The position numbers and the translations under genes are program-made. From Psammoneis japonica (taxonomy: Eukaryota), in contig QPGO01000012.1 in the NCBI GenBank assembly GCA_008632985.1, forward strand, positions 496,001 to 560,000: DNA of 64,000 nucleotides. Direction: 5' to 3'. How positions within the stretch are numbered: the stretch's first letter is position 1; each line of letters starts with the position of its first letter. Below the pieces are notes generated by a model that was given only the letters and a program-made list of their open reading frames with translations, had not been told where the DNA came from and did no database searches. Positions 1 to 44,448 of this stretch are shown here, one piece after another.

Positions 1-3000
1 GGGTCTTCTGACGCCCAGACCGTCTGCCACGCCTTGTCCGAGCATGCGCTTGCCTCCACCCGCGCTTCCATCGAGTCCTCCACCTTGCTCACGTGCCTCA
101 CCACCGCACGTCTTGGTGATGGCACTTGGAAAGTTCCGATCCACGGGTTCATCCTTCATTGGCAAGATCAGTTGCGCAAGTGCAAGGCACTCATCCCGGC
201 CAGCGACCACTTCTCTGAAGGACAGAAGTGCGTCATGCTCGAGAATGCCGCACATCCTGTCGAGGAACTCCGCGCCGTCAAGAACCAAGCTGATCAGCAT
301 CACACGCAGAGTGGCAAGAGCCTCACATGCGATCAACATTGTGGCTTGCTCCTCTCCGCGGCGGCTCAATGCGACAGTGCGTTTCAACCCAAGACGACAC
401 CTTGAGCTCCCCGACGCACCATGTGCGCACATGACGTCTTCTCCGAGGAACCATCCGATGATGTGTTCTGTGACATCGACAGCGACATTGACGTCCTTCA
501 GGCCAACGCTGCCTGCACCCGTGGTCCCAGCCTCACCGGTGACCAATGGAAACGTCTCCCTCCCGACCACCAACAGATTTGGGATTCGTTGCCCCATTCC
601 TCCAAGGCGATCATCCTTGAGCATTCTCGTCCGCCTCCCCGCAACCCGCAAGCCAGCAACCACCATGAGTCCATTGCGGCCAACCTTCACGACCAACGAC
701 TTGGGAGTGACGGTGATGTCAACTTGTCCAACACGACTCCTGCTGACTCTGGTGACCCTGCTCCAAATGTGGGTGCCACTTCAGACAATCCCATTCTGGC
801 GCACCTCACCAAGTGCAAGCCACTGCCACCCGGTGATCTGCAACACCTGTTGTCTCCCAACCAAGCCCCCAACGCCAGTCGACCGGGCCCATCCGCCAAC
901 TCCCTCTACCTCGCCTGCTCCTGCAGATGACATGGAACTCAACGGCCGCACTTGCCGCCGCGTCAATGACCACAATGTCATTTGCTCTGCCTCCGCTCAT
1001 CGCTCCACATGCACTGGTGCTCTGGTCCATCGTGGAGCCAACGGCGGCATTGCTGGTGACGACGTTCGCGTCATTGCACGCACCTCTCGCCAAGTCGACG
1101 TTCAGGGCATTGACGACCATCAATTGGTGGACATCCCCATTGTCACTGCTGGTGCCGTCATTGAGACACAGTGTGGTCCCGTCATCGCCATCCTCCATCA
1201 GTGCACATGCACGGGAAAGGGCAAGACCATTCATTCCTGCGGCCAGCTCGAATGGTGCAAACATGATGTCAACGATCGCTCTGTCACGGTGCCCAACGGC
1301 TTGCAATGTGTCGCCACCCCTGATGGCCATGTCATCCCAATTGACATCAAGGGCGGCCTGCCTCATGTTGCCATGCGTCCCTGCACTGACGCCGAATGGG
1401 ACACCCTGCCCCATGTCATCCTCACCGGTGATGACACATGGGATCCTTCCGTCCTCGATCACTCCATCACTGATGACGACCAGTGGTGCGACGCGATCTC
1501 TGACCTGCAGGACGATCCCACTGCCAACCCATTTGACGAGTGCGGCAACTGCCGTCACCGTGTCGTTGTCAACAAGGCCATCATGTCCGCCTCCTTGTCT
1601 GCTGATCACGCGTCCATCCTCGATGACCACCTCATTCCGAATGACGACGTGTTCTGCGAGTGTCATCTACACGCGATTGACCCCAAGGACGACAACGTTC
1701 CGCCCCCGGAGCGCACTGTGCAGCCCAAGGACCCCCCCTGCGAGTCTCTTCGGCCTCACTTTGGTTTCCAACCTGCCGATGCGGTTCGTCGTACTTTCGA
1801 CTGCACCATGCAGTGCGCCCGCATGCCCGCCGGTGCACACCTTAAGAAGGCCCACAAATCGCCCAACCCCACCCTTAATGTGCACCGCCGCAACGAGCCC
1901 ATCACCACTGACACCGTTTGTGCCGACACCCCGGCCGTCGACTCTGGTTGCACCAGCGCCCAACTGTTTGTTGCCACCGAGTCTACCGTCACTGACGTCT
2001 GCGGCACCAAAACGGACAAAGAGTTTGTCAACACACTCGAGGATCAGATCCGTGAGCGTGGTGCTCCATCCAAACTCATCAGCGACCGTGCTCAAGTTGA
2101 GATCAGCAACAAGGTGCTCGGGATCCTGCGAGCCCTCTTTGTCTCCAGCTGGCAAAGTGAGCCTCACCAGCAACACCAAAACTTTGCCGAACGTCGACAC
2201 CAGACCGTGAAGCGCATGGCAAACACTGTCATGGATCGTTTCGGTTCGCCTGCCCACACATCGCTGCTGGTGCTCATGCACGTGTGCTTCATGCTCAACC
2301 ACACAGCATCCCCACGTCTCCACTGGCGCATGCCCCTCGAGACTCTCACTGGCTCCACCCCGGATGTCAGCCCATTGCTTTGCTTTCACTGGTGGGAACC
2401 CGTGCACTTCCACCTCGATGACTCCGATTGGCCGTCCGAATCCCGTGAGTTGCGTGGACGCTTTGTTGGCATTGCTGAGCACGTCGGCCACCAGATGACC
2501 TTCAAGATTCTCTCTGACGAGACTCAGAAGATCCTCTGCCGGTCCAACGTACGATCCGCTGCCACCGATCCTGCCGTTCGAAACCTGCGTCTTGATCCTC
2601 CTGATGGGGAGCCACCTGAACCCATCATCAAATCTTGCCATGACGACAACCCCGTCGATTCACCCGATGGGGAGATCAGGACACCCAAGATGCCAGTTTT
2701 CGATCCGCAAGACATCATCGGACGCACCTTCCTCATGCAGCCACAAGAGGACGGACAACGCCACAGAGCTCGCATCGTCAAGGCCTTCGAAGACCACGAA
2801 TGGAAAGTGAACGGCAACCCCGAGCTCACTAAGTTCGTCTGCTCTGTCAACAACGACGAATGCAAGGAAGTCCTGGCCCACAACGACATCATGAATCACA
2901 TTGAGCAAGAAGACAAAGACACTGCTGTTTGGAAATTTCGACGCATTGTGTCACACGAAGGACCTCTGAAGCCTCATGACCCAACCTGGAAAGGCTCAAG

Positions 3001-5240
3001 CTGCAACATTGTGCTTGAATGGGAAAGTGGGGAGATCACGTCCGAGCCTCTTGCCATCATCGCCAAGGACAACCCTGTCACCTGCACCATCCATGCACGA
3101 GAGAACGGACTTCTCGACACTGACAGCTGGAAGCGGTTCCGCACCATCGCGAGGCGCCAGAAGAAGCTGTTCCGCATGGCCAACCAAGCCAAGCTTCGCT
3201 CCTTCTGCACTGCACCTCGCTGCAAGTGCGGATGCGAAGTTCCCCGGAACTGCAAACACGCCATGTCACTGGACGAACGCAATGGCAACTGCAAATGGGG
3301 AGACGCAACTAATCTCGAGATGGGCCAACTCAATGAACACGAAGTCTTTCATGACTGCGGGCCCTCCGAGTCTTCCACTCCTCCTGCAGGACACAAGAAG
3401 ATCCAAGTGCACCTGGTGTGCGACGTGAAACACGACGGCTGCCACAAGGCACGACTCGCAGCCGATGGGCACCTCACGGACGCCCATCGACAGTGTCTGC
3501 TCCGGAGCAGTCTCCCTCCGTGGCCTTCGGCTGATGATTTTCCTGGCCGAACTCAACGAGTTGGAGACATGGGCCACTGACATTGGCAATGCCCACCTTG
3601 AAGCCACCACCAAGGAGAAGCTGTACATTGTGGCTGGACCCGAATTTGGCAAACTCGAAGGCCACATTCTTGTCATCCACAAGGCCCTGTGTGGACTGCG
3701 CAGCTCCGGCCTCCGCTGGCACGAGCGCTTCGCCGACTGCCTGCGAGCTGAAGGCTTCTTCCCCTGCCGCGCCGAACCCGACATTTGGATGCGCAGGAAC
3801 GGCGACCACTGTGAATGCATTGCCGTTTATGTGGATGACCTCGCCATTGCCATGAAGGACCCTCAATCTTTCGTCGACACTCTCACGGAAAAGCACAAGT
3901 TCAAGCTCAAGGGTGCGGGACCCATTGAGTTCCATCTGGGTTGCGACTTTTCCCGGGACCCCGACGGAACCTTGTGCCTGTCTCCGCGCAAGTACATTGA
4001 ACGCATGGTCGACAGCTGCACACGACCTTTTGGGGAGAAACCTGCCACCAACGCCCTGTCACCTCTGGAGAAGGGTGACCACCCCGAACTGGACACTTCC
4101 GAACTGCTGGGGCCCGATGGCATTCAACAGTTCCAGTCTCTTGTTGGTTCACTCCAATGGGCAGTGTCCCTTGGTCGAATTGACATTGCCACGGCCGTCA
4201 TGTCACTCTCTAGCTTCCAAGCTGCGCCCCGTCAAGGCCACTTGGATCGTGCCAAGCGCGTCTGTGGGTGCCTCTCCAAGATGCGACACGGTGCTCTCCG
4301 CGTTTGCACGGAAGAGCCCGACTGTTCAGATCTCCCTGCTCCGGCCTGTGAATGGATGCATTCCGTGTGCAGCGAAGCAGAAGAGATGATCCCGAAGGAT
4401 GCTCCACCGCCCCTTGGCAAGTTCGTCACTGCCACCCACTGTGTCAATGCAAACTTGTGCCATTGCATGCTCACCGGACGCTCTGTCATGGGAATGCTCC
4501 ACTTCCTCAACAAATTCCCGGCTGATTGGTTCTCTGAGAAGCAAGCCACCATGGAGACTGCGACCCACGGGTCTGAATTTGTTGCCGCAAGGACTTGTGT
4601 CGAGCAGATTGTCGACCTGCGCATCACCCTGCGCTGCCTCGGCGTCCCGATCCGTGACATCAGTCGCATGTTCGGTGACAACAAGTCGGTTGTAGACAGT
4701 GCCACCATCCCGCACTCCAAGTTACACAAGCAAACACACCGCACTGTCATTCCACCGTGTGTGTGAGGCAATTGCCTCTGGTTGCCTTGAGCTCCACTTC
4801 ATCGAAGGCTCCCACAACCCTGCTGACATTCTCAGCAAGCATTGGGGTTGCTCCCAAGTCTGGGACCTTCTCCGCCCCCTCATGTTCTGGAACTTCATTC
4901 CATCTGAAGTCGAATCTGTTTCTGTGACTCCTCAAGCAAACTGGGGAGTGATAGGATTTGAACAGGATTTGGGTGCGTGCGACATGTCGCGCGCTGTTTG
5001 CTTTGCCGCGCACAGTTTTGTGTGCTTTAGTTCCGCACATTCGCGCGCGATGTAGTTTGCTTTCGAGCCACAAGGCTCACAAGAATGACAACAGTGGCCC
5101 GATTGTACCAACTTGCACGTCTTTTGGCTCCTGTGACGGTCTCTGAGCGGAGACTCATCTGCCATTTAGACAGCAGTGAGGAGTTTTTGTTTGAATTCTT
5201 GCCATTTGCCTTCAATTTCTGTCATGTGATTTTGGTTTCA
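1..5240 (+). mobile_element. Ty1/copia (diatom CoDi-like) LTR retrotransposon, cut at 5' by the window edge, decayed
   Basis: gag remnant (34-405, TGA); protease-like LVHRGANGG; integrase (LISDRAQVE, SEPHQQHQNFAERR); RT (DIGNAHL, KALCGLRSSG, YVDDL) in ORF 3465-4766; RNase H (NPADILSKHWG). Frameshifts near 3480 and 4735. PPT ggggag before TG at 4949. Confidence 0.93.
4949..5240 (+). repeat. Putative 3' LTR of the copia element
   Basis: Starts TG right after the purine tract (ctggggag|TGatagg); plausible ...tttCA end at 5240. No partner LTR in the window, so the end is uncertain. Confidence 0.55.
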
Positions 5241-6302
5241 AGTGATGCACAATGCTTTCGACCAGACAATTGCATCATGGATTTTGCGTCGAACGCATCT
5301 TGACCCAACGGCCAAGCCCAAACGGGGTCATTGGAAGCCATGAGAGCTTCTCGAAATGCATGACAATCAACCCAGCTGCCCCCACGGTGGCCAACAAATC
5401 ATCGTCGGATTGCAATGGAAAAGTGTCGCAATGATCCTTGTTCCACCGGTGGCAGATGTCATTTCTGAATTCAACGACCTTCTGTCTTCCGCCCGCCAGA
5501 ATCAAACCCAGTGCAAAATTTGATGGTGTTTGCACCACGCATGGCAACAGGCTCTCACGCACGGCAATTTTGCACCGGAGCTTGCACATCCTGATGGAGT
5601 TGTAAATCCTTGAGTGGGGCCCAGCAAGGACTGAGGCGAGCGTGCGGCCACACGAAGTTGTCAGTCCCGTCTGCTTGTGACTCAGTGCATTTCTGCGGTG
5701 AAAATTGCACAGGAATCCGACGATGACAAAAACGGTCAGATGACTTCCGCCAACTGCAATGTGAAATGCACCCAGTGTGCATTCTTTGTTTGTTTGTGCT
5801 TGAGTTGACTCTTTCAGGCGTCAGATGCAGTTGCTTTGACGAGTTGGAATTTCTCCGAACGAATGACGAATCGCACGGAGCACCACAGCTTTGTACGTGA
5901 AGGCAGTGCTCAGCGTTGTTTTGGCAAGTTCAGCAAAGTGACTGCATGCAACGCCCAAAACAGTCAACTCAACTGTCAACGAACAAAGAATGTACATTGG
6001 GTGCAGCTCATGTTGCAGTTGGTGGAAGTCATCTGACCGTTTTTGTCATCGTCGGATTCCCACGCAATTTTCACCGCAGAAATGTGCTGAGTCACGAGTG
6101 GGTGGGACTGACAACTTCGTGTAGCCGCGCGCTCGCCTCAGTCCTTGCTGCATGTGCAGCACCATGCAGCACTGCATGAGCGTAGTTTCTCCACGACCCG
6201 CCCAGCACAAAGCTCAACATGGAAACAGAGAAACACGAAACACAGTGCAGTGTGCCCATTCCCCCCTTCCATCCCACAGAAATGCGGCTCGATTTTGGCA
6301 AC

Positions 6303-8876
6303 ATGTTTGTCTGGCACAAGCTTGACGACTTATCGTCGAGCAAAGTGAAAGTGAAAGATGGCGCTGATGTGGATGATCTGAAGGTCGTGACACATGAGAA
6401 ATCGCCAGAGTTGAAGGACTTTTCCGCTGCTCGCCTCAAGGTCTTCGCTGCGGGTGCCGATCCGAAACAGGGCGAACATCTCGACCCTGGCGACATCGTG
6501 TCATCTAATGCAACAAGCAGGAAACATCTGATTGTGGTCTCTCCGAAGCAAGATGGTGAGTTGAGATGTTGTTTTCATGGTTTGTGCTGGTCGAACTGGA
6601 GTTTGCTGAAAATTTGCATCATTGTGACTGCAACATCCTACTCTGAGCTCAAAGTTCACAGCCAACAATGTTTGTCGGTTTTCATGTTGCCTGCAAAATT
6701 CAGGTGCATGCGCAGCACGGAAAAAGAGACCAGGCTACGAGCAGGATCAAAGCATTGATGCACTGGCACAACGTTTGGAAGACCAGGCTTCACTGAAGCC
6801 TTCAGATTCAGAAGAGTCGGCTGCGCCTCTTCCGTTCACCAATCGGGACACAGAGATCAAGCAACTTGCCAACATCTTGCTTTCAAATTCTGCAAAACGG
6901 AAGAAGCGGCCAAAGACATCTGGTGCAATGTCGCAGAGTCGACTGGTTCTTGCAACATCAGCACAGATGCTCGGCTCCGGCAAATCAACCTTTGAGGAAA
7001 ACTTCTTGGATCGATTGAATGCTCACTGTGTCATGCAGAGAAGGCTTTGTGAGCGTCATCTGGAAGACAACGTGGGGTGGCTTCTTAGGCTCGTTTATGT
7101 TGGTGTGGATTCAAGGGCGTTGGACTTTGCCAAGCCATTCATCGTGTCTGTTCGCGATGCTCTGCTCACGGCGTTGTGGGGGGAACTATCCAAGGAACAA
7201 CAGGATGCCGCCAAGGGAATGTTTGCACAACTCGGATCGCCTCTTTCATTAAATTGTGCGTCTGTTGTACGAAAATTTGAAGAAATCACGAGATGCCACT
7301 TCTTTTTGCACCTGGACAAGGTCAGTGCTTTGGGGGCTTTCATGACGAAAGAGCAAACAGAAGTTGCACTTCTCTGCCAGATGTGGGGGGAAATCAGCGG
7401 CATTCACAACTCCACAAACTCTGAAGTTTTTTGTTCTGGTCGCTCTCCGTCCCTTTTCCTTCTTGGCAAAGGGGATGTTGGGTCAAAAGAGGGTTTGCGC
7501 TCTCCGGAGGATGTCATGTGCATTCTGTTGGACCCCTTGAAGAAGGAAAACGTGAAAGAGATCTTTGAAGTTTTCTTGGATGATGTCGATGATGAATTCA
7601 TCAGTCTGTTGCATCACGTGACAAGTGGCATTCCATGGTTCGTTTCGCACGCCGTCAACTTCTTCACAGATCGCATTGGGGTCACTGGTTTTGCCCCGAT
7701 CAACTGCAAAGAAAGGAGGACAAAGTTCTTACATGATTTGGAGCCTTTCAGCTGATGCCTCGACATGCACGCCTCAGCCGAGATGAATCCGCTTGAGGAG
7801 TTGCAGGGAGCTCGAAAGAATTTCTGTGCGGAGTTGATTCAAATTGCCGCCTTGCGCCTTCCTCTGCGAATGGACAAAACGATCGACAGAGCATGCTGGG
7901 GTCTTCCAGGCGAAGTGATGACTCTGAAAGTGTGCAGCACATTTCCGCTGCATCTGCAACGCTGGGACGGAAGCCATCATTGTTTCGTTGTCCCTCCTGC
8001 AATCTTGAACAATGTTGCCAGAGCCAGCACAGAGCCTCGGCTTCCATTTTGGAGCTCTCTGTGTAACGCATGCCCGGTTCAGGCACAGGCGCAGAATTTG
8101 GGGGACTTGCTCAAGACTGTGATCTGGCACATTCTTCGCTTGAGAGTCAGCGAGGAGCTTTTTGGCGGTCCTCGACCTCTTGGCCAGTGCCTGCCCTTCT
8201 TGGGAGGGTCAGCATCAAGAAAGACACCTTCTCATGTTCTGACTTCAAATCTTTTCCCAAAATTTCTACCGCTCCAGCATCTGGCGGCAATGATGCCCAG
8301 TTGCGTAGATTCTTTGATGACCCATCTGCCACTGGCTTCAGTGATGTTCACCCAGAGGACCTTGGAAGAGTGGTCGGCTTGCTTCAGGAGGGACATTTCT
8401 GTGTGCCTCGGCCAAAATCTTCTTCTGCCGACCTGCTTTTCAAAACTGGCAATCGTGTCATTGTCGAGGTGCAGTTCAAGAACGGAAAGCAGGGAGTGAA
8501 TTCCGCCATGATGGCCAAAGAGCTGAGGAAGTCGTGTTGCATGTCGATGCGCAAACAGGCACCTGCAGTGTTTGTGATGATCGCGCTCACAATTTCAGAG
8601 GAAAACCTGCCATTGGGCAGAGATGTCATCGACAGTGAAGGCAAGACGATTGCCAGGCGTTGCGGTGAAGGATCAACTTTTGGCAAATTTCTTGTTCCCT
8701 CCAGCTTGGAAGTGATTGTTGTGCTGGAGCCAGGCCTGGAGTCATTGCTGACTACAGAAAATGTCAAAATCCTCCGCAAGGGCGAGCTTGATTTGTGTGA
8801 CATGACTCTGGCTACGCGGTCTTCAAAGTGCTGGCTTTTTTGGAGCAAGGACGTACTGAGTCTGGGGGGCAAATGA
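6303..8876 (+). pseudogene. Crinkler (CRN)-like gene: ubiquitin-like N-terminal domain + P-loop NTPase + PD-(D/E)xK nuclease-like C-terminus, disrupted
   Basis: Header MFVWHKL...DVDDLK...LKVF...LDPGD...LIVVSP; GT donor at about 6556; Walker A QMLGSGKSTF and Walker B-like FFLHLDKV; C-terminal SADLLF...VEVQFKNG. Premature TGA at 7753-7755 and a frameshift near 8200. Confidence 0.65.
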
Positions 8877-9292
8877 AGGGACAGCATTGATTGGCCTGAC
8901 AAGGGCACAGAACAACAGCCAAGCACCCTGCCTGTTGACATTTGTTTTGCCACTGTGTCGCATTGCTTCGACCGACGCTCTTTCTTGTGTTTTTCTGAGC
9001 CAGCCTTGCTCACCGTCAAAGCACGTTGTGATGCTCCCAACGACAGATCAGCTGCACTGTGTTAGAACTTTGCATCATAAACGGAAACTTTCCCAAATGA
9101 AATGATTTCGAACAATGTTTTTCTGTCACATTTGCTTGCGGACGAAGTCAGACACAGTCGAACCTGTCTTCGTTGTTTCAGCATGTGTCCGGTCACGTGG
9201 GTGGCTCCGAGTTTGTGAAAAAAAGAAGAGGAAAAGGAGGAGGACGAGAGAACATTCGTGTGGCAGATGGCAGGGCCTCTCTCTGCTCTGCT

Positions 9293-9673
9293 CCAGTTGG
9301 TCATCCGTACAAATGCCACAATGCCATGTGTGGCATTTCTTTCTGCGGCGAAACTGGCACTGATTCTATGCAATGCCATGTAAAATGCCACATTTTGCGC
9401 ATGAAAAAAGCGTGCCGGCAATTGATTCGTGGCCCCCGACTGCGACAAACTCATTTCTTATGTTGTGCTGTACAGAAGCCTTGGAATGCCACTTCCAATC
9501 GATTTTCCCTCATGTGTTTCATGCGCCCCTGTGCCCAGCGGTGTTTGGCGCTTTGCTGTCAACAGAAAAACAATCAGGGAGCATTGGAAAAACAGTGGTG
9601 GCGTTTGGGATCAAAATGCCATGTTCATGCCACATTTGGGGCAAATGTGGCATTTGTGCGGATGACCAACTAG
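9293..9673. mobile_element. MITE / non-autonomous DNA transposon with about 28-bp TIRs
   Basis: ccagttggtcatccgtacaaatgccaca at 9293 is inverted to tgtggcatttgtgcggatgaccaactag ending at 9673 (2 mismatches). Internal aatgcca repeats. No clear TSD. Confidence 0.75.

Positions 9674-15490: not shown

Positions 15491-15540
<50 letters not shown>
15488..15540 (+). repeat. (CA)n microsatellite
   Basis: Perfect CA run read directly. Confidence 0.98.
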
Positions 15541-15541
<1 letters not shown>

Positions 15542-35059: not shown

Positions 35060-35180
35060 AAGACAGCCCTTGCTTGCTCCTTTGGGCTTTGGGGTCACAG
35101 CCCTCGCTTGCTCCTTTGGGCTTTGGGGTCACAAACGGCACAGCTCCTCCTGCAGCCAACCAGCCCTTGCTTGCTCCTTC
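35060..35180 (+). repeat. About 34-bp tandem repeat (cagcccttgcttgctcctttgggctttgggg), resumed at 43669-43720
   Basis: Units at about 35063, 35097 and 35161; the last is interrupted by the LTR element and continues after it. Confidence 0.8.
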
Positions 35181-35873
35181 TGTTGGAAATGGCGAATTAA
35201 AAGTTCAAACACCAAAGTTAGACAGCGTGAAGAAGACGTACGCTTCAGTGCTCATGTGCTCCACGTGAAGCACCAAAACAGCCGATGGAAGCAGTCGTTG
35301 TTCTCTTTTGACTCTTGGAAAGTGTTGTGACAACAAGCTTGTCTATTTTGGCCTCAGGATCAGACCTCAGAGGACTGAGGTGGCTCTGGAATGGTCGCCA
35401 GAAGGACAAACCACAACAGTTAAAAGAGAACAATCCAGCCAAGAGCTGTGAAAAGAAAGTGAGAAAGAAAAGAGTCGTTCTCACAGTGTGCAAGACATTT
35501 TGCTGCTTTGCCTTTTTGTCACAAGTGGAAGAGGCAGAGGTGGAACTGGCAACAGAAGCCAAGGAAGAGGACCCTCAGGAAGGGGAAACAAGAGTGGCAA
35601 GCAAAGCCACAAGGGCATCAATGATTGTGTGTGCTGTGTTGGAAGTGCCAAGCAAGCATCTGATTTTCAGATTGCTGCTGAGTTCATCATCAACTGCATC
35701 AAGAAGACTTGTGAGTTTGGAAACGACATTGCAACTGCACTCAACACTTGCACTCCATGTGACATGAGTTCTAAAAAGCCGACTTTGCAGGTGAGCTTGA
35801 CTGGAGATGACAAGGTGGGCATGCAATTGAACAAACCGCATGAAATTGAGTTCAAGAAAGAATTTGATGCTCA

Positions 35874-37232
35874 TGCATGCATCGTGAATCGTGCACGCAC
35901 TTCTGCCGTGTTCGCTGCGTGGGGGTCCGCCGGGCCCACCAAGCCTTCAGGGTGCGCCGTGATCTCCGTGGCCATCCCGGCGTCATCCGAGAGTCCTGCC
36001 ATGGGCACATGCGTGGGTGCCTTTGCAAATTACCCTGATCTTCCCGCCTTCTGGCAGTGGAACGCATGCCATTGCAATGACAAGCCGGGGGTCGCAACAT
36101 CCTGCAGTCTGACCCCCAACTCAGTGACAGAGAGGCGTTTCCTCGGCAACTTTGATGCTCCACCCAGTGTTGCCCATGAGTTTGAAGGGAGGTCACTCAT
36201 GCATCTTCGGCAATGCACGTCTCGTCAGGAAGGCCTGTGCACACACAGGTGGACCTCAGACACGAGTTCAGGACATCCACGCAGTGACTGTCGTCTGTGT
36301 CATCCTCCTCCACGTCCTCAAACTCAGCGCACTCAGCGGCCAAAGTTCTTGGTCAGGACAAATGCACCAGCGGCGGCAAGGCCCATCTCTTCCGGAGGGT
36401 ACGGTGCCACCGCAACTGGTTGGCGACCAGGTCCCCGGCTCTGGGGCATGGGCATTTCCGTCCCAAGGCTGAGCGGGTCCAATGACGGTGGCAGGGTGGG
36501 TTGAAACGCGATGGTGCACTTGAACCGTCCCTTCATCCGGCGCGCCCTGCACATGGCTGCGGCGTGTTAACGCCATCGGTGCATTGTGCTCGGATGCCGC
36601 AGACACCCTCTGCGCCAGGGCTTGTGGGTTGTGGCATGATGGGCCTTGCACACGGGCAGCAAAATCAATCATGGGCTCAGCATGGACTCCTTGGTGTGGG
36701 TCCTTGTTGTTTGCCATGAAGTGATCGTGGTGCGTCCTGAGGTTTCCCTGTTGTGGGACCTGGGCTGTGCCGGCTTGCTGTGCTGGTTGGGCAGCTGCCT
36801 GTGGCTGTGTGCCCGGCACCCCTTGTGGCGCTTGGCCCGTGGGTGCACCCAGTGGTGGCTGGGCCGGTTGTCCTGCTGGTGGCACAGGGTGCACCGGCAG
36901 AGGCGGCATGTTCGACGGTGGTTGTGGTGGTTGCCCGGCCGGGCGGTTGCCCGCCCCCTTGGTTCACGGCGTTTGGTGGCTGGTTGTTCACACTGCGTGT
37001 TGCGTCGACTTCTTTCTGTGACAGGGCAAAGACGGCGGAGGTGTCCTGCATCGCGGTCTTATGGCGATTAAACTGTGCTGACAACAGCGGCTTGTCTTTG
37101 TCAATCTTGAAAGAATGAGACAAGCCAGTGATCGAGGAAAAACAACAACCCAACCTTTGCAGCACGTTCAACGTGCGTGCGTGGTTCAACAGGTGATGGG
37201 TCTTCTCCCCGATTCTGGCACTGGATGAGGAC
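35874..37232 (-). other. Foreign 1.36-kb insert with a Pro/Gln/Ala-rich ORF remnant inside the outer element
   Basis: No similarity to the inner element. Minus-strand ORF 36268-36909 continues in other frames. Junctions at ...gatgctca| and |agtcggcagtgtc. Confidence 0.6.
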
Positions 37233-37245
37233 AGTCGGCAGTGTC

Positions 37246-40200
37246 TGTTGGAAATGGTGAATTAAAAGTTCAAACACCAAAATTAGATGGCGTAAAGAAG
37301 ACGTACGCGTCAGCGCTCATGTGCTCCACGTGAAGCAACAACCACAGCCGATGGAAGCAGTCATTGTTCTCTTTTAACTCCCAGAAAGCATTGTGATGAC
37401 AAGCTTGTCTATTTTGGCCTCAGGATCAGACCTTGGAGGACTGAGGTGGCTCTGGAACAGTCACCAGAAGGATGAATTGCAACAGTTAAAAGAGAACAAT
37501 CCAGCTGAGAGCTGTGAAAAGAAAGCAAGAAAGAAAAGAGTCATTCTCACGGTGTGTGAGACATTTTGCTGCTTTGCCTTTTTGTCATGAGTGGAAGAGG
37601 CAGAGGTGGAACTGGCGACAGAAGCCAAGGAAGAGGACCCTCAGGAAGGGGAAACAAGAGTGGCAAGCAAAGCCACAAGGGCATCAATGATTGTGTCCAC
37701 TGTGTTGGAAGTGCCAAGCAAGCATCTGATTTTCAGATTGCTGCTGAGTTCATCATCAACTACATCAAGAAGACTTGTGAGTTTGGAAATGACATTGCAG
37801 CTGCACTCAACACTTGCACTCCATGTGACATGAGTTCTAAGAAGCCGACTTTGCAGGTCAGCTTGACTGGAGATGACAAGGTGGACGTGCCATTGAACAA
37901 ACAGCATGAAATTGAGTTCAAGACAGAATTTGATGCTCACATTAAGAGGGCCCAAACTTGTGAGAACAACCTTGTCAAGGCTCATGCTTTGCTCTGGGAG
38001 AGATGCTCCAAGGCCATGAAGAACAAGATTCAAGCAAGAACCGAGTTCCAAACCAAAATTGAAAACGATCCCATCGAATTGCTCAAGGCCATTAAGGAGC
38101 ATGCATTGAACTGCCAAGAGCACAGGTGTGACATGGCTGTCATCTCAGATTCAATGAGAGCGGTGCTGGAAACCAAGCAGAAGGAGAAGGAGAGTCTCCA
38201 AGATTGCACCAAGAGATTCAGGGTTGCAAGGGACATCATGAAGTCTCACATTGGAGGACCAATTGTCCTCACCAAGGCAGTGCAAGGCATGTCACAATGC
38301 GACGAGCACAATGCGGATTCTATCAAGAAGTGTCAAGAAAAGGCGTTCAGCCAATTGATGGGTTACATGCACTTGGAGAATGCAGACCAGCGCAAGTGCG
38401 GATCAATTCTAACAGGATTGAACACTCAGCAGTCCCTCAAGAACGACCAATGTCCCAAGTCCATTACGGAAGCCAACACGGTGTTGAGCAACCACAGTTT
38501 TGACTGCGTTGGTCAGCCTGACAACTGCCGCAACAGGAACAATCAAAACAACAACTCTGACTCCAAGAAACAAGAAGAAAACCAAGAAATCACACTGTCC
38601 TTTGCTCAGCTAGAAGGCAAGTGTTGCTGCTGTGGCAAGGCCGGACACAATTCCAACAAGTGCTGGGAAAGGCAAGGAAAACCTCAAGCAGAATGGGCCA
38701 TCAACAAGGCCAAAGCTGAGCAAGAAGCAAGCAATGCTCAGGCGAGTGAAGATGCCAGTGCAGCCAACTCTTCTGCCAAAGAATCCACTGGAACAAAATC
38801 CACTGTTTCAGGATGGGCTGGCATGCACATCGATGCATCTCTCTGCCAGGATCAACATGGCAGCATGAGAGACTGGATTTTATTGAACAACCAGTCCACA
38901 ACCACAATCTTGTGCAATGAGAAGCTCGTTGCAGACATCTGTCCATCGGATGAAGCCATGCATTTGCACACCAATGGCGGAGTCCCAGTCATGACACACA
39001 AGGCTGCGGCGCCAGGGTTTGGTGAGACTTGGTTTAACCCAGATGCAATCACCAACATTTTTGCTCATTCTGACATGAAGAAGAAACACAGAATCACAAG
39101 TGATTCTAAGCAAGACAATGCATTCACCGTTCATCTCCCCAACAAGAAGGTCAGGTTCGAGGAGGACGGAAAAGGGCTGCACGTTTGCAAGCCCAAGACA
39201 AATGACACTGGAATTCAGCTCCAATTTGTGCAGAGTGTGGAAGAGAACAAGAAGTTCTACACTCCACGACAGTTCGAGAAAGTCAAGAGGGCCAGGGAAT
39301 TGTTGCATGCGTTGGGAAACCCAACCGTGAACGATCTGAAGGCCATCATTTGCATGAACAGCATCAAGAACAATCCCGTCACAATGGAGGATGTAGATTT
39401 GGCCGAGAAGATTTTTGGACCAGACATTGGAAGTCTAAAAGGCAAGGTCACAAGGCAGAAGCCGGCACCAGTTGTAGAAGACTGCGTGGAGATCCCGAAG
39501 GAGCTCATTGCAGCGCAACACAAGGTCACTCTTTGCCTGGACGGTCTCAAGGTGAATGGATTGCCATTCCTCACCACAGTGTCACGAAACATTTTTTATC
39601 GCATGGCACAACCGCTCAAGGACTTGACCCAACCCACTCATCAAGAAGCTCTGGAAGATGTGCTGCGAGTCTACAACAAGGCCGATTTGAAGGTCACACG
39701 CATTCGTTGCGACAACGAATTCAGGCCCATTGGGAGTGCACTAAAAGACAAGTTTGATCTCAAGATGAACTGCGCAAATGCTCAAGAGCATGTCCCAGAA
39801 GCTGAAAGAAACAACCGAGTTGTTCAAGAACGTGCCAGGGCCGTCTGTCATCAGCTGCCGTTCAAGCATCTGCCAAAACTCATGGTCGAAGTCATGGTCA
39901 CCGAAGCTGCTGAGAAGCTCAATTATTTTCCAGCCAAGCACGGCGTTTCCAAACATTGCAGTCCGAGAATGATTCTCCATCAAAAGAATCTAGACTGTGA
40001 CAAGAGCTGCAAGATCACGTTCGGCACTTGTGTGCAAGCTCACAATGACCCGGACCCCAAGAACACCCAAGAGTCACGGACCTTGGATTGCATTCATTTG
40101 CACCCCACCGACAGCAACCAGATTGGACATGAGTTGCTGCACTTGCAAACTGGCAAGAAGATCACTCGTCGCAAGGTCACCCTTGTGCCCATCACTCCCG

Positions 40201-42880
40201 CCATCACAAAGCAGGTTCATTGTTTGGCTGAAATGAACAAGATGCCCAACGGCCTCAAGATTCAGAACCACACTGGAACTGTTTTGTGCGACAGTGCTTG
40301 GCTTGCAGGAGTGGATTGTGATGAAGATCAATTTGAAGACAAAGATTGTGATCTAGAAGAAGACACTGAAACTGAAGACGATGAGGAAGAAGAGCCAGAC
40401 TGGGGAGACTGCGACAGAGTTAGTCAAGAAGAGCTGCAAGACATAACTCAAGAACAAGAATTGGATGAAGAAGCCAGCTGCATCAGCGAAGAACAAGACG
40501 AGACTCAAGAAGAAACCTCCAATGATGAGGATCTCGGAGACAATGACAAAGTTGGTTCTCAACCGTCAGACGGCAGCGGAATTTCACAAGAAATCGACGA
40601 CATGATTGACCACATTGATGAACAACAGAGGCTGGAACAAGAGAAGGAACACTCTTCGGAAGTGCAAGAGATCATCGACGAAATGAAAGACCTGGAATCT
40701 GATGACGAATCTGGAGAGGAGCAGAGTGAAACCGAAGAAAGTGTTCAAGAAGAGCCTGTTGCTGCGTCCAGGGCAGGAAGGACTCTGAAACCTCCAGTTA
40801 GATTGGGAGACCACCAATGCCATCTACAGACTCAAGCTCATTCACAAGAAGAAGAGTGCAGCTTAGAAACGGCCAGAATCATGGCCGCGACAATGTGTCA
40901 GTGGAACGAGAAGGTCAGCACGATTTCCACTGATGAAGAAGCACATCATTTCATTCAGACTTGCAGCTTGGCACGAGGACTCCAGAAGTTTGGAGAAGAA
41001 GGCCACAAGTCGGCAGTGTCAGAGCTGAAGCAAATCCATGTAGAGTGGTTTTCAAACCCATTCACATCAATGACATGACTCCTCTGGAGAGGAAGAGAGC
41101 CATGGAGAGCCTCATGTTTCTCACAGAGAAGAGAGATGGACGAATCAAGTCAAGGTTGTGTGCAAACGGAAGCACGCAACGAGAGCACATGGACCAAGAC
41201 CAAGCCGCCAGTCCGACAGCATCCACAGAATCTGTTCTCGTTGCAGGAGTGATTGATGCCAAGCAAGGCAGAGACGTTGTGACAGCGGACATCCCGAACG
41301 CATTTGTGCAAACGGACATCGAGGTCAAGGATGAAAAGATCATCATGAAGATCCGTGGAAGGATGGTGGACATGTTGCTGGAATTGGATCCAGACACTTG
41401 CCAGGACTGCATCGTGTGTGAAGGCAAACACAAGGTTCTCTACGTTGAAATGTTGAAGGCGCTCTGCGGAATGCTGGTGTCCTCCATTCTTTGTCACAAG
41501 AAGTTCCGCAGAGACATCGAAGGAATCGGATTTGAGGTTGATCCTTGTGATCCATGTGTCGCCAACCGCATCGTGAATGGAAAACAACACACGGTGACAT
41601 GGCATGTGGACGATTTAAAGTCCAGTCACGTTGGCAGCAAGGTCAACGATGAATTCAAGATTTGGTTGGACAAAACTCACGCGGATGAGATCGGAAAGGT
41701 CAAATGCACGCGTGGAAAGAGGCACGACTGTCTAGCCACGACTCTAGATTGCTCCATTCCAGGAGCACTGCAAGTTGACATGGTGCTTTATGTGCAAGGA
41801 ATGGCCAAGGAATTCTTCAAGGAATTCCCAGAAGAATTGTCGGGTGACGTGGATTGCCCGTGGAGCGAGAAGCTCAACAAGGTGGATGAGACAGCCAAGA
41901 AATTAGATCTCAAGCATGCTCGAGCATTTTGCACTTTTGTGATGAAGGGCATGTTTGTGTGCAAGAGAGCCAGACAGGACATTCAGCCTGGCATTGCTTT
42001 TCTCTCCACCAGGGTCAAGGATCCGAACGAATCGGATTGGCCAAAGCTGGTGAGGCTCATGAATTTCCTCAAGACAACCCAGCTTGATGTCACAGTCATG
42101 TTGGCTGGAGACAAAGTCATCATCGAGTGGCACACGGATGCCGCATTCGCAGTCCATCCGGACTGTAAAAGTCACACAGGTTCTGCCATGACCCTTGGAA
42201 AAGGTGTCATTACATCAGTCAGCACGAAGCAGAAGATCAACACCAGGAGTTCTACAGAAGCAGAGATCGTCGCAGGAGATGATGTTTTGGCAAAGGTCCT
42301 TTGGACCACGCATTTTGTTGAAGCTCAAGGTTTTGAAGTCGAGCGCAACATCATGCATCGAGACAATCAAAGTTGCATGAAACTAGAACAAAATGGAAAG
42401 GCCAGCTCGGGCAAACGCACGAGACATTTCAACATCAAGTGTTTTTACATCACTGACCTCATCAAGCCAGGAGAACTTGAGATCAAGTTCTGCCCAACGG
42501 ACAAGATGATGGCAGATTACATGACCAAACCAGTGGTTGGTAAAAAGTTCATTGTTGATCGTCAAGCCATCATGAACATCCAAGTGCCTGAGATGGTCAA
42601 ATTTGGAAATGGCAAGAATCTTGTCATTGGTCAGCAGGAGTGTGTTGGAAATGGTGAATTAAAAATTCAAACACCAAAATTAGATGGCGTGAAGAAGACG
42701 TACGCGTCAGCGCTCATGTGCTCCACGTGAAGCAACAAAACAGCCGATGAAAGCAGTCATCATTCTCTTTTAACTCTTAGAAAGTATTGTGATAACAAGC
42801 TTGTCTATTTTAGCCTCAGGATCAGACCTTAGAGGACTGAGGTGGCTCTGGAATAGTCGCCAGAAGGATGAATTACAACA
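37246..42880 (+). mobile_element. Inner full-length Ty1/copia (CoDi-like) element nested in the same family, TSD GTGTC
   Basis: LTRs 37246-37484 and 42643-42880; GTGTC on both sides; gag-Zn knuckle-protease-integrase ORF 37566-41078 (RCDNEF, HVPEAERNNR); RT/RNase H ORF 40961-42730 (DIPNAF, WHVDDL, TRSSTEAE); 1-nt deletion frameshift near 41040; PPT agcaggag. Confidence 0.96.
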
Positions 42881-44448
42881 GTGTCAGAGCTGAAGCAAAT
42901 CCATGACAGAGTGGTTTTCAAACCCATTCACATCAATGACATGACTCCTCTGGAGAGGAAGAGAGCCATGGAGAGCCTCATGTTTCTCACAGAGAAGAGA
43001 GATGGACGAATCAAGTCAAGGTTGTGTGCAAACGGAAGCACGCAACGAGAGTGCATGGACCGAGACGAAACCGCCAGTCCGACAGCATCCACAGAATCCA
43101 TTCTCATTGCAGGCAAGGTTTTGAAGTCGAGCGTAACATCATGCATCGAGACAACCAAAGTTGCATGAAACCAGAACAAAATGGAAAGGCCAGCTCGGGC
43201 AAACGCACGAGACATTTCAACATCAAGCATTTTTACATCACTGACCTCATCAAGCGAGGAGAACTTGAGATTAAGTTCTGCCCAACAGACAAGATGATGG
43301 CAGATTACATGACCAAACCAGCGGTTGGTAAAAAGTTCATTGTTGATCGTCAAGCCATCATGAACATCCAAGTGCCTAAGATGGTCAAATTTGGAAATGG
43401 CAAGAATCTTGTCATTGGTCAGCAGGAGTGTGTTGGAAATGGTGAATTAAAAGTTCAAACACCAAAATTAGATAGCGTGAAGAAGACGTACGCGTCAGCG
43501 CTCATGTGCTCCACGTGAAGCAACAAAACAGCCGATGGAAGCCGTCATTATTCTCTTTTAACTCTTAGAAAGTATTGTGATAACAAGCTTGTCTATTTTA
43601 GCCTCAGGATCAGACCTTAGAGGACTGAGGTGGCTCTGGAACAGTCACCAGAAGGATAAATTACAACACCTTCGGGCTTTGGCAACCAGCCCTTGCTTGC
43701 TCCTTTGGGCTTTGGGGCAGCAACAAGCATCATGTGCGAGTGCTTGGCTTTGACAAATCCCGTCAACTGTGCCCAGAAGAGCAACAGGAGCTGCGCAGAC
43801 AATTGTGGTCAATTGCCCGGAAGCCTTGTCAAGTGTGGCCCAATCAGAAAAATGATCAGAACAACTTGCCTTTGGCTTTGACAAGTCCCATCAACTGCAG
43901 TGGTCTACTCAGCAGAGACAGTTGTGGTGGTTCCCAACACAACTGCCAGGAAGCCAGACAAGTGTGATCAGAAGTTCAACAAGAAAAATGATCAGAACAA
44001 CTGCCACCGACTTTTTGCTCTTCGAGGTCCTGAGATGAGCATTTCTTTTGTTACAAAAGTGTGATGAGTCACAGAGCGTACACTCTTGTTGAGCAATTGG
44101 CAGTGCCAGACAACTCCCAAATGTGCCCATTGGGCTCAGTGTGCAAGAAGAAGGAGGAGTCCATGCAGATCCCAGGGAAAAGAGTCTAATCTTCCAAGCA
44201 TTGCTGACATTGAGTGGCAACAGCAGGCATGTCAGCATGCTTACAGGAAGTTCTGATGTTCGAGCCTTTAAGAAAAACTCTTTGTGAGCTTCCGGACTTG
44301 TCAAAAACATGATTTCAAAATTTTCAAGAGATCAACAGAGTGCTCAGAATGCCAGGGGTTGGAATTGGGGGGGGGGGGGGGGAATGGCCCTCTCAAAATC
44401 TTCAGGAGTCCCAAAATTAGATGCAGAACCTGAAAATAGTCAAGCTGA

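What the first reader, a model, noticed from the sequence alone, without database searches (positions are those of the whole stretch)
1..44448. Candidate genome-defence system: repeat-targeted TpA->TpG/CpA hypermutation (inverse of RIP)
Seen: transposon-rich blocks have lost nearly every TA dinucleotide while neighbouring genes keep normal TA. Conserved copia tyrosines read as Cys or His: KALYG->KALCG (two elements), GNAYL->GNAHL, TATYGSE->TATHGSE, LRYLG->LRCLG, HWGY->HWGC, NPYDPC->DPCDPC, CYCCG->CCCCG. TAY->TGY or CAY is A->G at TpA on either strand. Known: fungal RIP and 5mC decay run C->T; RIP in particular creates TpA, the reverse of this. Inference: a DNA-level process marks repeats or heterochromatin and converts A:T to G:C at TpA. 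Candidate mechanisms are a TadA-like adenine deaminase acting on DNA, deamination of a modified adenine, or Pol-eta-like error-prone synthesis at TA. I know of no described system with this signature, but could not check the literature.
Basis: partly seen in the sequence, partly recalled or inferred. Interest (0 to 1): 0.96.

Follow-up and report, generated by a model that had tools for sequence, protein, structure and literature searches.

The report
TpA-erasing hypermutation of transposon blocks
Large transposon-filled stretches of this algal genome have had nearly every TA step rewritten to TG or CA while the genes between them are untouched, the mark of a little-known DNA-mutating defence so far reported in only one other alga.

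Summary
Four blocks (1-20,900; 23,400-29,950; 34,001-42,500; 58,900-60,500; 37.5 kb) hold 203 TA against 2,244 expected (o/e 0.09). Gene islands have o/e 0.57. The borders are cliffs of about 100-650 bp.

The direction of change is established.
- In two copia-type families, 43 of 56 Tyr columns conserved in intact relatives now read Cys (TGY) or His (CAY), and 6 stay Tyr. Other conserved residues are kept 70-100%.
- A flanked host gene keeps 18 of 18 conserved Tyr.
- A-to-G at conserved first-base-A codons is 14 of 19 after T and 9 of 222 otherwise.
- LTR copies show TA in some copies and TG or CA in others at the same sites.
- Relatives' DNA has TA o/e 0.62-0.79.
- Contigs built independently from a public run reproduce the TA-less sequence.

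This is a DNA-level mutator specific to TpA and confined to defined regions. Survivors indicate a T-A-T > T-A-C > T-A-R preference.

The signature is not undescribed. A 2026 preprint shows it arising live in Bigelowiella natans. This window puts it in a second lineage, probably a diatom, at saturation in retrotransposon blocks. The enzyme is unknown; a TadA/ADAT2-like adenine deaminase is the leading guess.

The parts
1..20900 (.). TA-depleted block. In 1-15,500 TA is lost but CpG o/e stays 0.5-1.0 ('class A'). In 15,500-20,900 both TA and CpG are lost ('class B').
   Evidence: 500-bp bins hold 0-7 TA each against 10-43 in genic bins. The cliff lies between TA 20977 and the dense run starting at 21115.
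3429..4763 (+). Reverse-transcriptase reading frame of copia-type element 1, hypermutated.
   Evidence: Pfam RVT_2 E=5e-20. TA o/e 0.10. Carries KALCG, GNAHL, TATHGSE and LRCLG. Translation.
10334..12610 (-). gag/integrase reading frame of copia-type element 2, hypermutated.
   Evidence: Pfam gag_pre-integrs and SH3_retrovirus. 6 of 6 conserved Tyr columns read His (4) or Cys (2), while 84 of 93 other conserved columns are kept. TA o/e 0.06.
21001..23300 (.). Spared gene island (ORF 21,332-22,936 +).
   Evidence: TA o/e 0.35-0.69 and CpG 0.45-1.25 in 500-bp bins. TA positions.
23400..29950 (.). TA- and CpG-depleted block (class B). It holds an old, decayed relative of element 3 at about 24,840-25,370.
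   Evidence: TA 0-4 and CG 0-9 per 500 bp up to 29,500 (CG 16 in 29,501-30,000), TG+CA o/e 1.6-2.1. 68-70% DNA match to 37,961-38,518. tblastn hits. Single-copy depth of 70-92 over 28,000-29,200 in run X1.
30000..34000 (+). Spared gene island: beta-propeller gene (ORF 30,955-33,495).
   Evidence: Pfam Beta_propel E=2e-120. 18 of 18 conserved Tyr kept. TA o/e 0.31-0.66.
34001..42500 (.). TA-depleted block (class A) holding element 3 and an extra LTR+gag fragment.
   Evidence: TA 1-9 per 500 bp.
37246..42882 (+). Copia-type LTR retrotransposon (element 3). The polyprotein frame is 37,626-42,577, with one frameshift near 41,040 and no stop codon in 1,650 codons.
   Evidence: 48-64% identity over residues 12-1647 of intact ~1,640-aa polyproteins. 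Tyr 0.6% against 4.1-4.5%, Cys 3.9% against about 1%. Of 50 conserved Tyr columns, 6 are Tyr, 24 Cys, 13 His.
35179..35873 (+). Extra copy of the LTR plus gag start of the element-3 family, mutated independently of the copy at 37,244-37,939.
   Evidence: 92.4% identity over 696 nt, with 13 adjacent TG/CA double differences. Lost 12 of 16 ancestral-TA columns.
37246..37486 (+). Upstream LTR copy of element 3, heavily mutated.
   Evidence: 10 of 16 ancestral-TA columns lost against 2 of 207 private changes at other columns.
42643..42882 (+). Downstream LTR copy, little mutated (keeps 12 of 16 TA columns).
   Evidence: 12 TA between 42,660 and 42,874.
43431..43668 (+). Further LTR copy in a 788-bp tandem duplication, least mutated (keeps 14 of 16 TA columns).
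42500..44447 (.). Partly depleted edge zone (TA o/e 0.24-0.35).
44448..45298 (.). TIR-bounded, MITE-like repeat at the edge of the depleted block. High copy number but normal TA. A counter-example to simple repeat targeting.
   Evidence: 46-nt inverted ends. Summed depth of 978 and 1,487 in the two bins spanning 44,227-45,428, against about 55-66 for single-copy contigs. TA o/e 0.51-0.61.
58900..60500 (.).
   Evidence: TA 1-5 and CG 1-4 per 500 bp.

Best explanation
Transposon-filled regions of this nuclear genome are subject to a DNA-level mutator confined to those regions. It turns TpA into TpG or CpA, which is an A:T-to-G:C transition at the A of 5'-TA-3' on either strand. It runs until almost no TA is left and stops within a few hundred bases of host genes. 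It is far faster than background substitution and clearly faster than CpG decay. It favours 5'-T-A-T > T-A-C > T-A-A ~ T-A-G. It wipes out Tyr codons (to Cys or His), and by inference TATA-type and AATAAA-type signals, without creating new stop codons, so dead elements keep long open frames. It is the same process as the TpA hypermutation seen arising live in Bigelowiella natans.

Shown here: the direction of change, the TpA specificity, products on both strands, independence between copies, sparing of genes, and that the sequence is real.

Inferred: that it acts in place on chromatin-marked regions as a genome defence, and that the catalyst is a TadA/ADAT2-type adenine deaminase working on DNA. 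My odds for that enzyme are about 0.35-0.4. It would inherit a requirement for T/U at position -1 from the invariant U33-A34 of its tRNA substrate (recalled).
For: Depletion: 203 TA against 2,244 expected in 37,552 bp; genic DNA 928 against 1,628.

Mass balance per kb, depleted minus genic: TA -34.9, CG -18.6, TG+CA +56.6. AA, TT and AT are not depleted in that way.

Polarity from proteins: in element 3, of 50 Tyr columns conserved in at least 6 of 8 intact homologues, 6 are Tyr, 24 TGY-Cys, 13 CAY-His and 7 other. All 19 other residue types are kept 70-100%. In element 2, 6 of 6 Tyr columns read His or Cys against 84 of 93 other columns kept. Control: host beta-propeller 18 of 18 Tyr kept; ABC gene 16 of 22.

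TpA specificity away from Tyr: at conserved I/M/T/N/K codons the first base is now G in 14 of 19 when preceded by T and in 9 of 222 otherwise (Fisher p=4.5e-13). T-to-C at codon position 2 of conserved I/V/L/F/M columns is 3 of 242 (from the table).

Polarity from DNA copies: in 16 ancestral-TA columns of a 240-nt LTR, four copies lost 12, 10, 4 and 2. At several columns one copy reads TG and another CA while others keep TA. Private changes at other columns number 7, 2, 2 and 1 of 207.

Native state: 7 of 7 related loci in metagenome contigs have TA o/e 0.62-0.79 against 0.13 for element 3. 95 of 96 related proteins have Tyr of 2.5% or more.

Context: a four-parameter per-strand model fits all 10 NTAN survivor counts with either baseline, giving rates T-A-T 2.5-2.9, T-A-C 1.2, T-A-G 0.54-0.59, T-A-A 0.45-0.81.

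Reality of the sequence: contigs of run X1 at single-copy depth (about 55-66) lie on 28,000-29,317, 29,503-32,209 and 32,346-34,757 (gaps between pieces), and on 35,907-36,484 and 43,688-44,382, with 0-2 other letters each.

Precedent: in B. natans mutation-accumulation lines, 230 of 231 mutations in two integrated viral regions are A->G or T->C. The GC-biased ones all fall on TpA, at about 1000x the genome rate (preprint 10.64898/2026.01.13.699255, Results read).
Against: No enzyme, modification or chromatin mark could be examined, because no genome is held. Action in place, as opposed to editing of each copy before integration, rests on indirect arguments. These are products on both strands within one element, unequal loss among LTR copies of one tandem array, depletion of stretches that are now low-copy or unannotated, and cliffs at gene edges. 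The LTRs sit in a rearranged tandem array, so they are not a clean 5'/3' pair of a single insertion. Pfam recognised transposon domains in only three elements, and 144 of 149 further frames had no hit (5 had only weak, non-transposon hits), so 'all depleted DNA is transposon' is not shown. The context preference rests on survivors compared with a baseline, not on polarised events. The small polarised sets only lean the same way: in the LTR, 12 of 14 against 9 of 16 (my count from the table); for the base preceding His against Cys outcomes, A or G in 7 of 13 against 8 of 24. Neither is significant. Run X1 is probably the sample the window was assembled from and its library type is not on record, so it excludes an assembly error but does not formally exclude a read-level artefact. 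The T-A-T preference differs from the 3' neighbours recalled for TadA (UACG), fungal TAD2/3 editing and ADAR (3' G).
Confidence: 0.8

Rival explanations
1. The same DNA-level process, but centred on the thymine. A TET/JBP-type dioxygenase marks T at TpA in silenced transposon DNA as 5-hydroxymethyl- or 5-formyl-uracil. The oxidised base mispairs with G at replication, or is repaired wrongly, giving T-to-C. On the palindromic TA step this cannot be told apart from A-to-G.
For: TA is self-complementary, so every observation here reads equally well as T->C with a strict 3' A and a 5' preference A > G > C ~ T. In dinoflagellates a TET/JBP enzyme makes 5hmU, most 5hmU lies on repeat elements, and older work found preferential replacement of T in TA and TC (PMC11572971: search listing and passages only). 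Two TTA->CCA double changes in LTR copies would fit TA followed by TC targeting.
Against: General T->C outside TpA is rare: 3 of 242 conserved I/V/L/F/M second positions. TpC is therefore not a notable target. That 5hmU or 5fU causes T->C at such efficiency is recalled, not tested. No TET/JBP gene could be looked for.
Confidence: 0.13
2. Editing before integration. Each retroelement copy was hypermutated as RNA (ADAR-like) or as cDNA during reverse transcription, then inserted already TA-poor.
For: The clearly annotated targets are retrotransposons. Independent TG/CA patterns in different copies would also arise from separately edited intermediates.
Against: Both A->G and T->C (sense strand) occur side by side within one element: 24 Cys and 13 His at Tyr columns. 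RNA editing of the sense strand predicts A->G only. The 3' preference is T, not the G recalled for ADAR. LTR copies of one array differ strongly in loss: 10 against 4 and 2 of 16. Depletion also covers stretches between and beyond the elements and blocks with no recognisable element. In B. natans the same signature arises in resident single-copy DNA.
Confidence: 0.04
3. Biased error-prone synthesis or biased mismatch repair in heterochromatin (for example a Pol-eta-like WA signature, or strand-blind T:G-to-C:G correction) rather than an enzyme that chemically alters a base.
For: A:T->G:C at TA is one component of the Pol-eta spectrum (recalled). Restriction to particular regions could follow from repair pathways tied to chromatin state.
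Against: AA/TT are not depleted: 72.8 and 70.3 per kb against 81.4 and 81.6. A->G outside TpA is 9 of 222. Near-complete, saturating loss is hard to reach through repair errors.
Confidence: 0.02
4. Artefact or native composition. Either the TA-less sequence is a sequencing or assembly error at modified bases, or these elements are natively TA-poor.
For: Systematic miscalls at modified bases are known for some long-read chemistries (recalled). The library type of run X1 is not on record.
Against: Independent k-mer contigs at about 55-66x reproduce the sequence with 0-2 other letters. A strand-mixed miscall would also give CG and leave TA, whereas class B has neither. Relatives have TA o/e 0.62-0.79 and 4% Tyr. 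Loss of conserved Tyr is not compatible with a native, functional state.
Confidence: 0.01

Closest known systems
TpA hypermutation of integrated viral DNA in Bigelowiella natans (Mettrop et al., bioRxiv 10.64898/2026.01.13.699255, April 2026; abstract, Results and Discussion read, supplements not available)
   Same: Exclusively A:T->G:C at TpA, giving TpG and CpA. Confined to foreign or integrated DNA while the rest of the genome is spared. The long-term footprint is low TpA with high CpA+TpG. The low-TpA coding sequences there are enriched for reverse transcriptase and DDE domains. The enzyme is unknown, with ADAT2-like adenine deaminase proposed.
   Different: A different lineage: here probably a diatom, possibly a red alga, against a chlorarachniophyte. 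Here the targets are LTR retrotransposon blocks driven to saturation (o/e 0.09 over 37.5 kb), whereas the viral region there is still at rho 0.45. This window adds a 3'-neighbour preference, cliff-like borders beside genes, and co-occurrence with CpG decay in older blocks. A term search found no trinucleotide context in the main text of that preprint. No live mutation data exist here.
Repeat-induced point mutation (RIP) of ascomycete fungi
   Same: A DNA-level, dinucleotide-specific transition mutator that ruins transposons and leaves neighbouring genes intact. It produces a strong, diagnostic dinucleotide skew.
   Different: The chemistry and direction are opposite: RIP is C->T at CpA and creates TpA. 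RIP makes stop codons, whereas this process cannot make new ones. RIP depends on duplication, whereas here a roughly 20-copy repeat is untouched and low-copy DNA is affected. This lineage is not fungal.
CpG decay by 5-methylcytosine deamination
   Same: It also yields TG/CA, and it is evidently at work in the older blocks (CpG o/e 0.04-0.3).
   Different: It cannot remove TA. Blocks 1-15,500 and 34,000-42,500 have lost TA while keeping CpG o/e mostly 0.5-1.0 (lower, 0.15-0.47, in parts of 37,500-40,500). Conserved Tyr (TAY), not Arg (CGY), is the main source of the new Cys/His (Arg 40 of 51 kept).
ADAR hyper-editing of repeat-derived double-stranded RNA, and A-to-I mRNA editing by fungal TAD2/TAD3
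   Same: A-to-G with a preference for U/T at position -1 (recalled, and quoted in the preprint's Discussion).
   Different: Those act on RNA and leave the genome unchanged. They affect the sense strand only if copied back, and a 3' G is preferred. Here the change is in the genome, on both strands, with a 3' T preference.
5-hydroxymethyluracil marking of transposons in dinoflagellates (PMC11572971; passages read)
   Same: A base-level mark on transposon DNA, with a reported preference for the TA step, in another member of the SAR group.
   Different: It is an epigenetic mark, with no reported hypermutation. No evidence for modified thymine could be sought here.

Membership tests
B. natans-type TpA hypermutation | Changes are A:T->G:C transitions confined to the TpA step. 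| tested here: met
   Tyr columns: 43 of 56 are TGY or CAY. A->G is 14 of 19 after T against 9 of 222 otherwise. LTR columns show TA alongside TG and CA.
B. natans-type TpA hypermutation | Both products (TpG and CpA) occur, meaning both strands are hit. | tested here: met
   24 Cys and 13 His in element 3; 2 Cys and 4 His in element 2. TG and CA occur at the same column in different LTR copies.
B. natans-type TpA hypermutation | Restricted to foreign or integrated DNA, with host genes spared. | tested here: met
   Cliffs at about 21.1, 23.2, 30.0-30.2, 34.0 and 44.45 kb. Host gene keeps 18 of 18 Tyr.
B. natans-type TpA hypermutation | Arises de novo in resident DNA at about 1000x the background rate. 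| not testable with these tools
   No re-sequenced lines are available. The only indirect figure is 10 of 16 TA columns lost against 2 of 207 other columns changed in one LTR copy.
B. natans-type TpA hypermutation | Same (unknown) enzyme as in B. natans. | not testable with these tools
   No genome is held. The enzyme is not identified in B. natans either.
Fungal RIP | C:G->T:A transitions, mostly CpA->TpA, so TpA is enriched. | tested here: not met
   TpA is depleted ten-fold and CpA/TpG are enriched. The polarity is TA->TG/CA.
Fungal RIP | Targets duplicated sequence as such. | tested here: inconclusive
   The high-copy TIR element at 44,448-45,298 is not depleted. DNA at single-copy depth (28,000-29,200) is depleted, but it may be an old repeat.
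ADAR-type RNA editing fixed by retrotransposition | A->G on the sense strand only, with a 3' G preference. | tested here: not met
   Sense-strand T->C gives 13 of 37 Tyr losses in element 3. The 3' preference is T > C > G ~ A.
CpG methylation decay | Loss of CpG to TpG/CpA. | tested here: met
   Met in class B blocks (CpG o/e 0.04-0.3). It is a separate, slower process that does not account for the TA loss.
Pol-eta (WA) signature | A->G at both TA and AA. | tested here: not met
   AA and TT are near genic density. Non-TpA A->G is 9 of 222.
Ty1/copia LTR retrotransposons (the targets) | gag-integrase-RT-RNase H order, RVT_2 reverse transcriptase, flanking LTRs. | tested here: met
   RVT_2, gag_pre-integrs and SH3_retrovirus hits. 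Full-length match to ~1,640-aa RVT_2 polyproteins. 240-nt LTR copies with TG...CA ends and a purine-rich tract before the downstream copies.

The most novel reading that the evidence does not exclude
An ancient genome-defence system aimed at particular regions and shared at least across the SAR supergroup (Rhizaria: Bigelowiella; Stramenopiles: this probable diatom). A DNA-acting adenine deaminase descended from the tRNA A34 deaminase, recruited to silenced transposon and viral DNA, erases every TpA. This abolishes Tyr codons and TA-based promoter and poly(A) signals while never creating stop codons. It would be the first natural double-strand-DNA adenine 'base editor' used as immunity, and a mirror image of fungal RIP.
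Probability: 0.3. Interest if true: 0.93.

Novelty: new member of a known kind. Interest (0 to 1): 0.8.

Why it matters
Until 2026, RIP and APOBEC-type C-to-T editing were the only known ways cells mutate invading DNA to death. One preprint has now shown an A:T-to-G:C, TpA-specific counterpart in a single chlorarachniophyte, with no mechanism. This window shows the same signature, driven to saturation, in retrotransposon blocks of a different algal lineage, so the system is neither a curiosity of one species nor limited to viral inserts. That makes the enzyme findable by comparing genomes that do and do not show the footprint, in a group (diatoms) that has genetic tools. The work also yields a simple genomic diagnostic (TA o/e below 0.2 with a TG+CA excess, and Tyr replaced by Cys or His in open but dead reading frames) and a target motif (T-A-Y) to test in vitro. 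A natural DNA adenine deaminase, if that is what it is, would interest the base-editing field. There is also a practical caution for annotation. Such elements keep very long stop-free frames in several phases and largely escape Pfam: 144 of 149 frames had no hit and 5 had only weak, non-transposon hits. They can therefore be miscalled as genes or missed as transposons.

Tried and rejected
- Whole genome: none is held. No genome-wide profile and no search for deaminase, TET/JBP or polymerase genes was possible.
- Earlier scan notes: nothing for this genome or for similar sequence. The 41 notes holding 'TpA' (8 shown) concern phages and unrelated operons and were not used.
- Pfam on 149 further frames of at least 90 aa in the depleted blocks: 144 had no hit. 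The 5 weak hits (LRR_8 at 18,963-19,529 minus strand, E=1.4e-5; four others at E above 1e-3) do not identify transposons.
- TG/CA double differences between two copies (13 in 696 nt) were first taken as proof of ancestral TA. I rejected them as ambiguous on their own, because CpG decay gives the same pattern. They count only where another copy still has TA.
- Strand bias: TG and CA counts on the sense strands of three elements give no interpretable asymmetry without the ancestral sequence. Cys against His outcomes, 26 against 17 overall, are not significant.
- Preceding-base test of the context model on Tyr codons: it leans the right way but is not significant.
- TpC as a second target, suggested by two TTA->CCA changes: not supported, with T->C in 3 of 242 conserved second positions.
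- Host identity: the two protein-atlas look-ups were uninformative. Named relatives point to red algae for one gene and to diatoms for another gene and for the transposon, so the lineage is left as 'probably diatom'.
- Expression: no RNA holder is listed for the stretch. Run X2 has no contigs over most of the depleted blocks. This is no evidence either way.
- Tandem repeat scan: nothing relevant.
- Literature: five searches found no report of this signature in diatoms, red algae or any organism other than B. natans. The library lacks most subscription journals, and the preprint's supplements (mutation tables) could not be read, so an extended sequence context may already be recorded there.

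Full report
**What is in the window.** The 64-kb window is nuclear DNA of a eukaryote with long intron-poor genes.
- A beta-propeller gene (30,955-33,495) has its best named relatives in red algae at 43-44% identity. Unnamed hits reach 74%.
- A pectinacetylesterase-ABC fusion gene (49,300-53,118, minus strand) has its only close named relatives in the diatom Seminavis robusta, at 44-45% with the same fusion.
- The best-preserved retrotransposon is 48-64% identical to intact ~1,640-aa polyproteins whose named members are all diatoms.

I take the host to be a diatom, probably, with a red alga not excluded. No genome is held for the window.

**The observation.** In 2-kb windows TA obs/exp is 0.04-0.16 over most of 1-20,000, 23,000-29,000, 34,000-42,000 and 59,000-60,000. 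It is 0.46-0.76 in gene-bearing DNA. TG+CA climbs to 1.4-1.96 where TA is lost.

| Compartment | Length | TA observed | TA expected | o/e |
|---|---|---|---|---|
| Depleted blocks, pooled | 37,552 bp | 203 | 2,244 | 0.09 |
| Genic DNA | 23,000 bp | 928 | 1,628 | 0.57 |

The per-kb budget closes. TA falls by 34.9 and CG by 18.6, while TG+CA rises by 56.6. AA, TT and AT stay close to genic values.

The borders are abrupt. TA positions run 20,651, 20,956, 20,977 and then 32 sites between 21,115 and 21,351. The pattern is similar at about 23.1-23.3, 30.2, 34.0-34.1 and 44.45 kb.

The depleted blocks fall into two classes:
- In 1-15,500 and 34,000-42,500 TA is lost but CpG o/e is mostly 0.5-1.0.
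- In 15,500-20,900, 23,400-29,950 and 59,000-60,500 CpG is also gone (0.04-0.3).

**Direction of change, from proteins.** Element 3 (37,246-42,882) encodes a 1,650-codon polyprotein frame with one frameshift and no stop codon. It has only 0.6% Tyr against 4.1-4.5% in four intact relatives. Cys is 3.9% against about 1%, and His 3.8% against 2.3-3.1%.
- Of 50 columns where at least 6 of 8 intact relatives have Tyr, the window has Tyr 6, Cys (TGY) 24, His (CAY) 13 and other 7. Every other conserved residue type is kept at 70-100%.
- A second family (integrase frame 10,334-12,610, minus strand) was compared with 150 representatives. All 6 conserved Tyr columns read His (4) or Cys (2), while 84 of 93 other conserved columns are kept.
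- The host beta-propeller gene, which lies between two depleted blocks, keeps 18 of 18 conserved Tyr. The ABC gene keeps 16 of 22, but its columns were defined from only 4-6 relatives.
- A second test does not involve Tyr. At conserved Ile/Met/Thr/Asn/Lys codons, whose first base was A, that base is now G in 14 of 19 cases when the preceding base is T and in 9 of 222 otherwise (p=4.5e-13).
- T-to-C at the second position of conserved Ile/Val/Leu/Phe/Met columns is 3 of 242.

So the change is A:T to G:C, and it is specific to TpA.

**Direction of change, from DNA copies.** Four copies of a 240-nt LTR lie at 35,179, 37,246, 42,643 and 43,431. In 16 columns where at least one copy has TA and the rest have TA, TG or CA, the copies have lost 12, 10, 4 and 2 TAs. 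At several columns one copy reads TG, another CA, and the two edge copies read TA. Only an ancestral TA explains that in single steps. Private changes at the other 207 columns number 7, 2, 2 and 1.

Loss at TA is therefore tens of times faster than background, and it happened separately in each copy. One caution applies. TG/CA double differences on their own (13 between two 696-nt copies) would also arise from CpG decay, so I count only columns where a TA survives in some copy. The copies sit in a rearranged tandem array, so they are not a clean pair from one insertion.

**Native state of the family, and reality of the sequence.** Seven related loci recovered from metagenome contigs have TA o/e 0.62-0.79 (56-81 per kb). 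Element 3 has 0.13 (8.3 per kb). Of 96 related proteins, 95 have Tyr of 2.5% or more. One, from another public assembly (P0200), shows the same signature: Tyr 0.4%, Cys 4.8%, His 4.4%, and 0 of 16 conserved Tyr kept.

Contigs built independently from public run X1 lie on 28,000-29,317, 29,503-32,209 and 32,346-34,757 (with gaps between the pieces), and on 35,907-36,484 and 43,688-44,382. Their single-copy word depth is about 55-66, and each has 0-2 differing letters. The TA-less sequence is therefore in the reads. X1 is probably the source sample, and its library type is not on record.

**What the anatomy says about how it works.**
- *Both strands are hit.* Both products occur within one element, so both strands are targets. 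This argues against editing of the sense RNA.
- *Sequence context.* Survivors are strongly biased by context. ATAT and ATAC survive at 0.3-0.9% of baseline density and ATAA/ATAG at 3-7%, whereas CTAG, CTAA and TTAA survive at 18-40%. A four-parameter model, in which each strand's A in 5'-T-A-N is lost independently, fits all ten classes with either baseline. The rates are T-A-T 2.5-2.9, T-A-C 1.2, T-A-G about 0.55 and T-A-A 0.45-0.8. This rests on survivors, and the small polarised sets only lean the same way.
- *Speed.* TA loss is complete where CpG decay is still partial, so it is the faster process.
- *Targeting.* It is not simply by copy number. The TIR-bounded element at 44,448-45,298 has summed depth 978-1,487 but normal TA. 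Stretches at single-copy depth (28,000-29,200) are depleted.
- *Consequences for the element.* TA->TG/CA cannot create a new stop codon. That explains why the blocks carry many long stop-free frames: 193 of at least 90 aa. It also explains why dead elements look open.

**Comparison with what is known.** The signature is the reverse of RIP and is not CpG decay, ADAR editing or a Pol-eta spectrum (see the membership table).

It matches one report, a 2026 preprint on Bigelowiella natans. I read the abstract, both parts of Results and the Discussion. Its supplements are closed.
- In mutation-accumulation lines two integrated viral regions mutate about 1000-fold faster than the rest of the genome.
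- 230 of 231 changes are A->G or T->C, and the GC-biased ones all fall on TpA.
- 324 low-TpA coding sequences are enriched for reverse transcriptase and DDE domains.
- The authors suggest an ADAT2-like adenine deaminase.
- The preprint does not mention diatoms, red algae or a trinucleotide context.

Five literature searches found no other report.

A thymine-centred alternative cannot be separated from adenine deamination on a palindromic step. It has a partial precedent in dinoflagellates, where a TET/JBP enzyme puts 5hmU on transposons and T in TA and TC is preferentially replaced (PMC11572971, passages only).

**Verdict.** It is not unprecedented, but it is a second, independent and much more saturated instance in another algal lineage. 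It adds retrotransposon targets, a defined flanking preference and sharp gene-side borders. The enzyme, the targeting signal and the timing are inferred, not shown.

Noticed in passing
window 44448-45298: An 850-bp element bounded by 46-nt inverted ends, CpG-rich (o/e 1.2-1.45) with normal TA. Summed contig depth is 978-1,487 against about 55-66 for single-copy DNA. It looks like a young MITE-like DNA transposon sitting exactly at the edge of the TA-depleted block.
   Followed up: partly
window 32951-34273: One contig of run X2 lies in three pieces (32951-33146, 33264-33526, 34019-34273). This looks like a spliced transcript of the beta-propeller gene, with two introns near its 3' end. Its last piece lies in the first 300 bp of the TA-poor zone (2 TA in 255 bp). 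The run's type is only guessed.
   Followed up: no
window 35170-37495 (alignment A1, columns 157-160 and 254-257): Twice, in different LTR copies, TTA became CCA: an extra T-to-C immediately 5' of the converted TA. General T-to-C outside TpA is rare, so this may reflect local clustering of events. Unexplained.
   Followed up: partly
window 18963-19529 (minus strand): A leucine-rich-repeat-like frame (LRR_8, E=1.4e-5) inside a block that has lost both TA and CpG. It may be a former host gene or a captured fragment swallowed by the mutated region.
   Followed up: no
protein P0200 (from a public metagenome assembly): A 747-aa relative of element 3 from another public data set carries the same Tyr-to-Cys/His signature plus Arg-to-Cys/His (CpG decay). 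The process therefore leaves its mark in at least one other sample. Its DNA could not be fetched.
   Followed up: partly
window 49300-53118 (minus strand): A single 1,272-codon frame fuses a pectinacetylesterase domain to an ABCG-type transporter. The same fusion occurs in several Seminavis robusta proteins, so it is an unusual lineage-specific architecture.
   Followed up: no
window 32415-32497: Contigs of both runs include a form lacking 81 bp inside the beta-propeller gene. This is an in-frame length variant, allelic or a repeat-number difference.
   Followed up: no
window 29202-29802: Summed contig depth jumps to about 40,000 in this 600-bp bin, with several short skips in the laid contigs. 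No tandem repeat was reported there by TRF. The nature of this very high-copy piece is unknown.
   Followed up: partly
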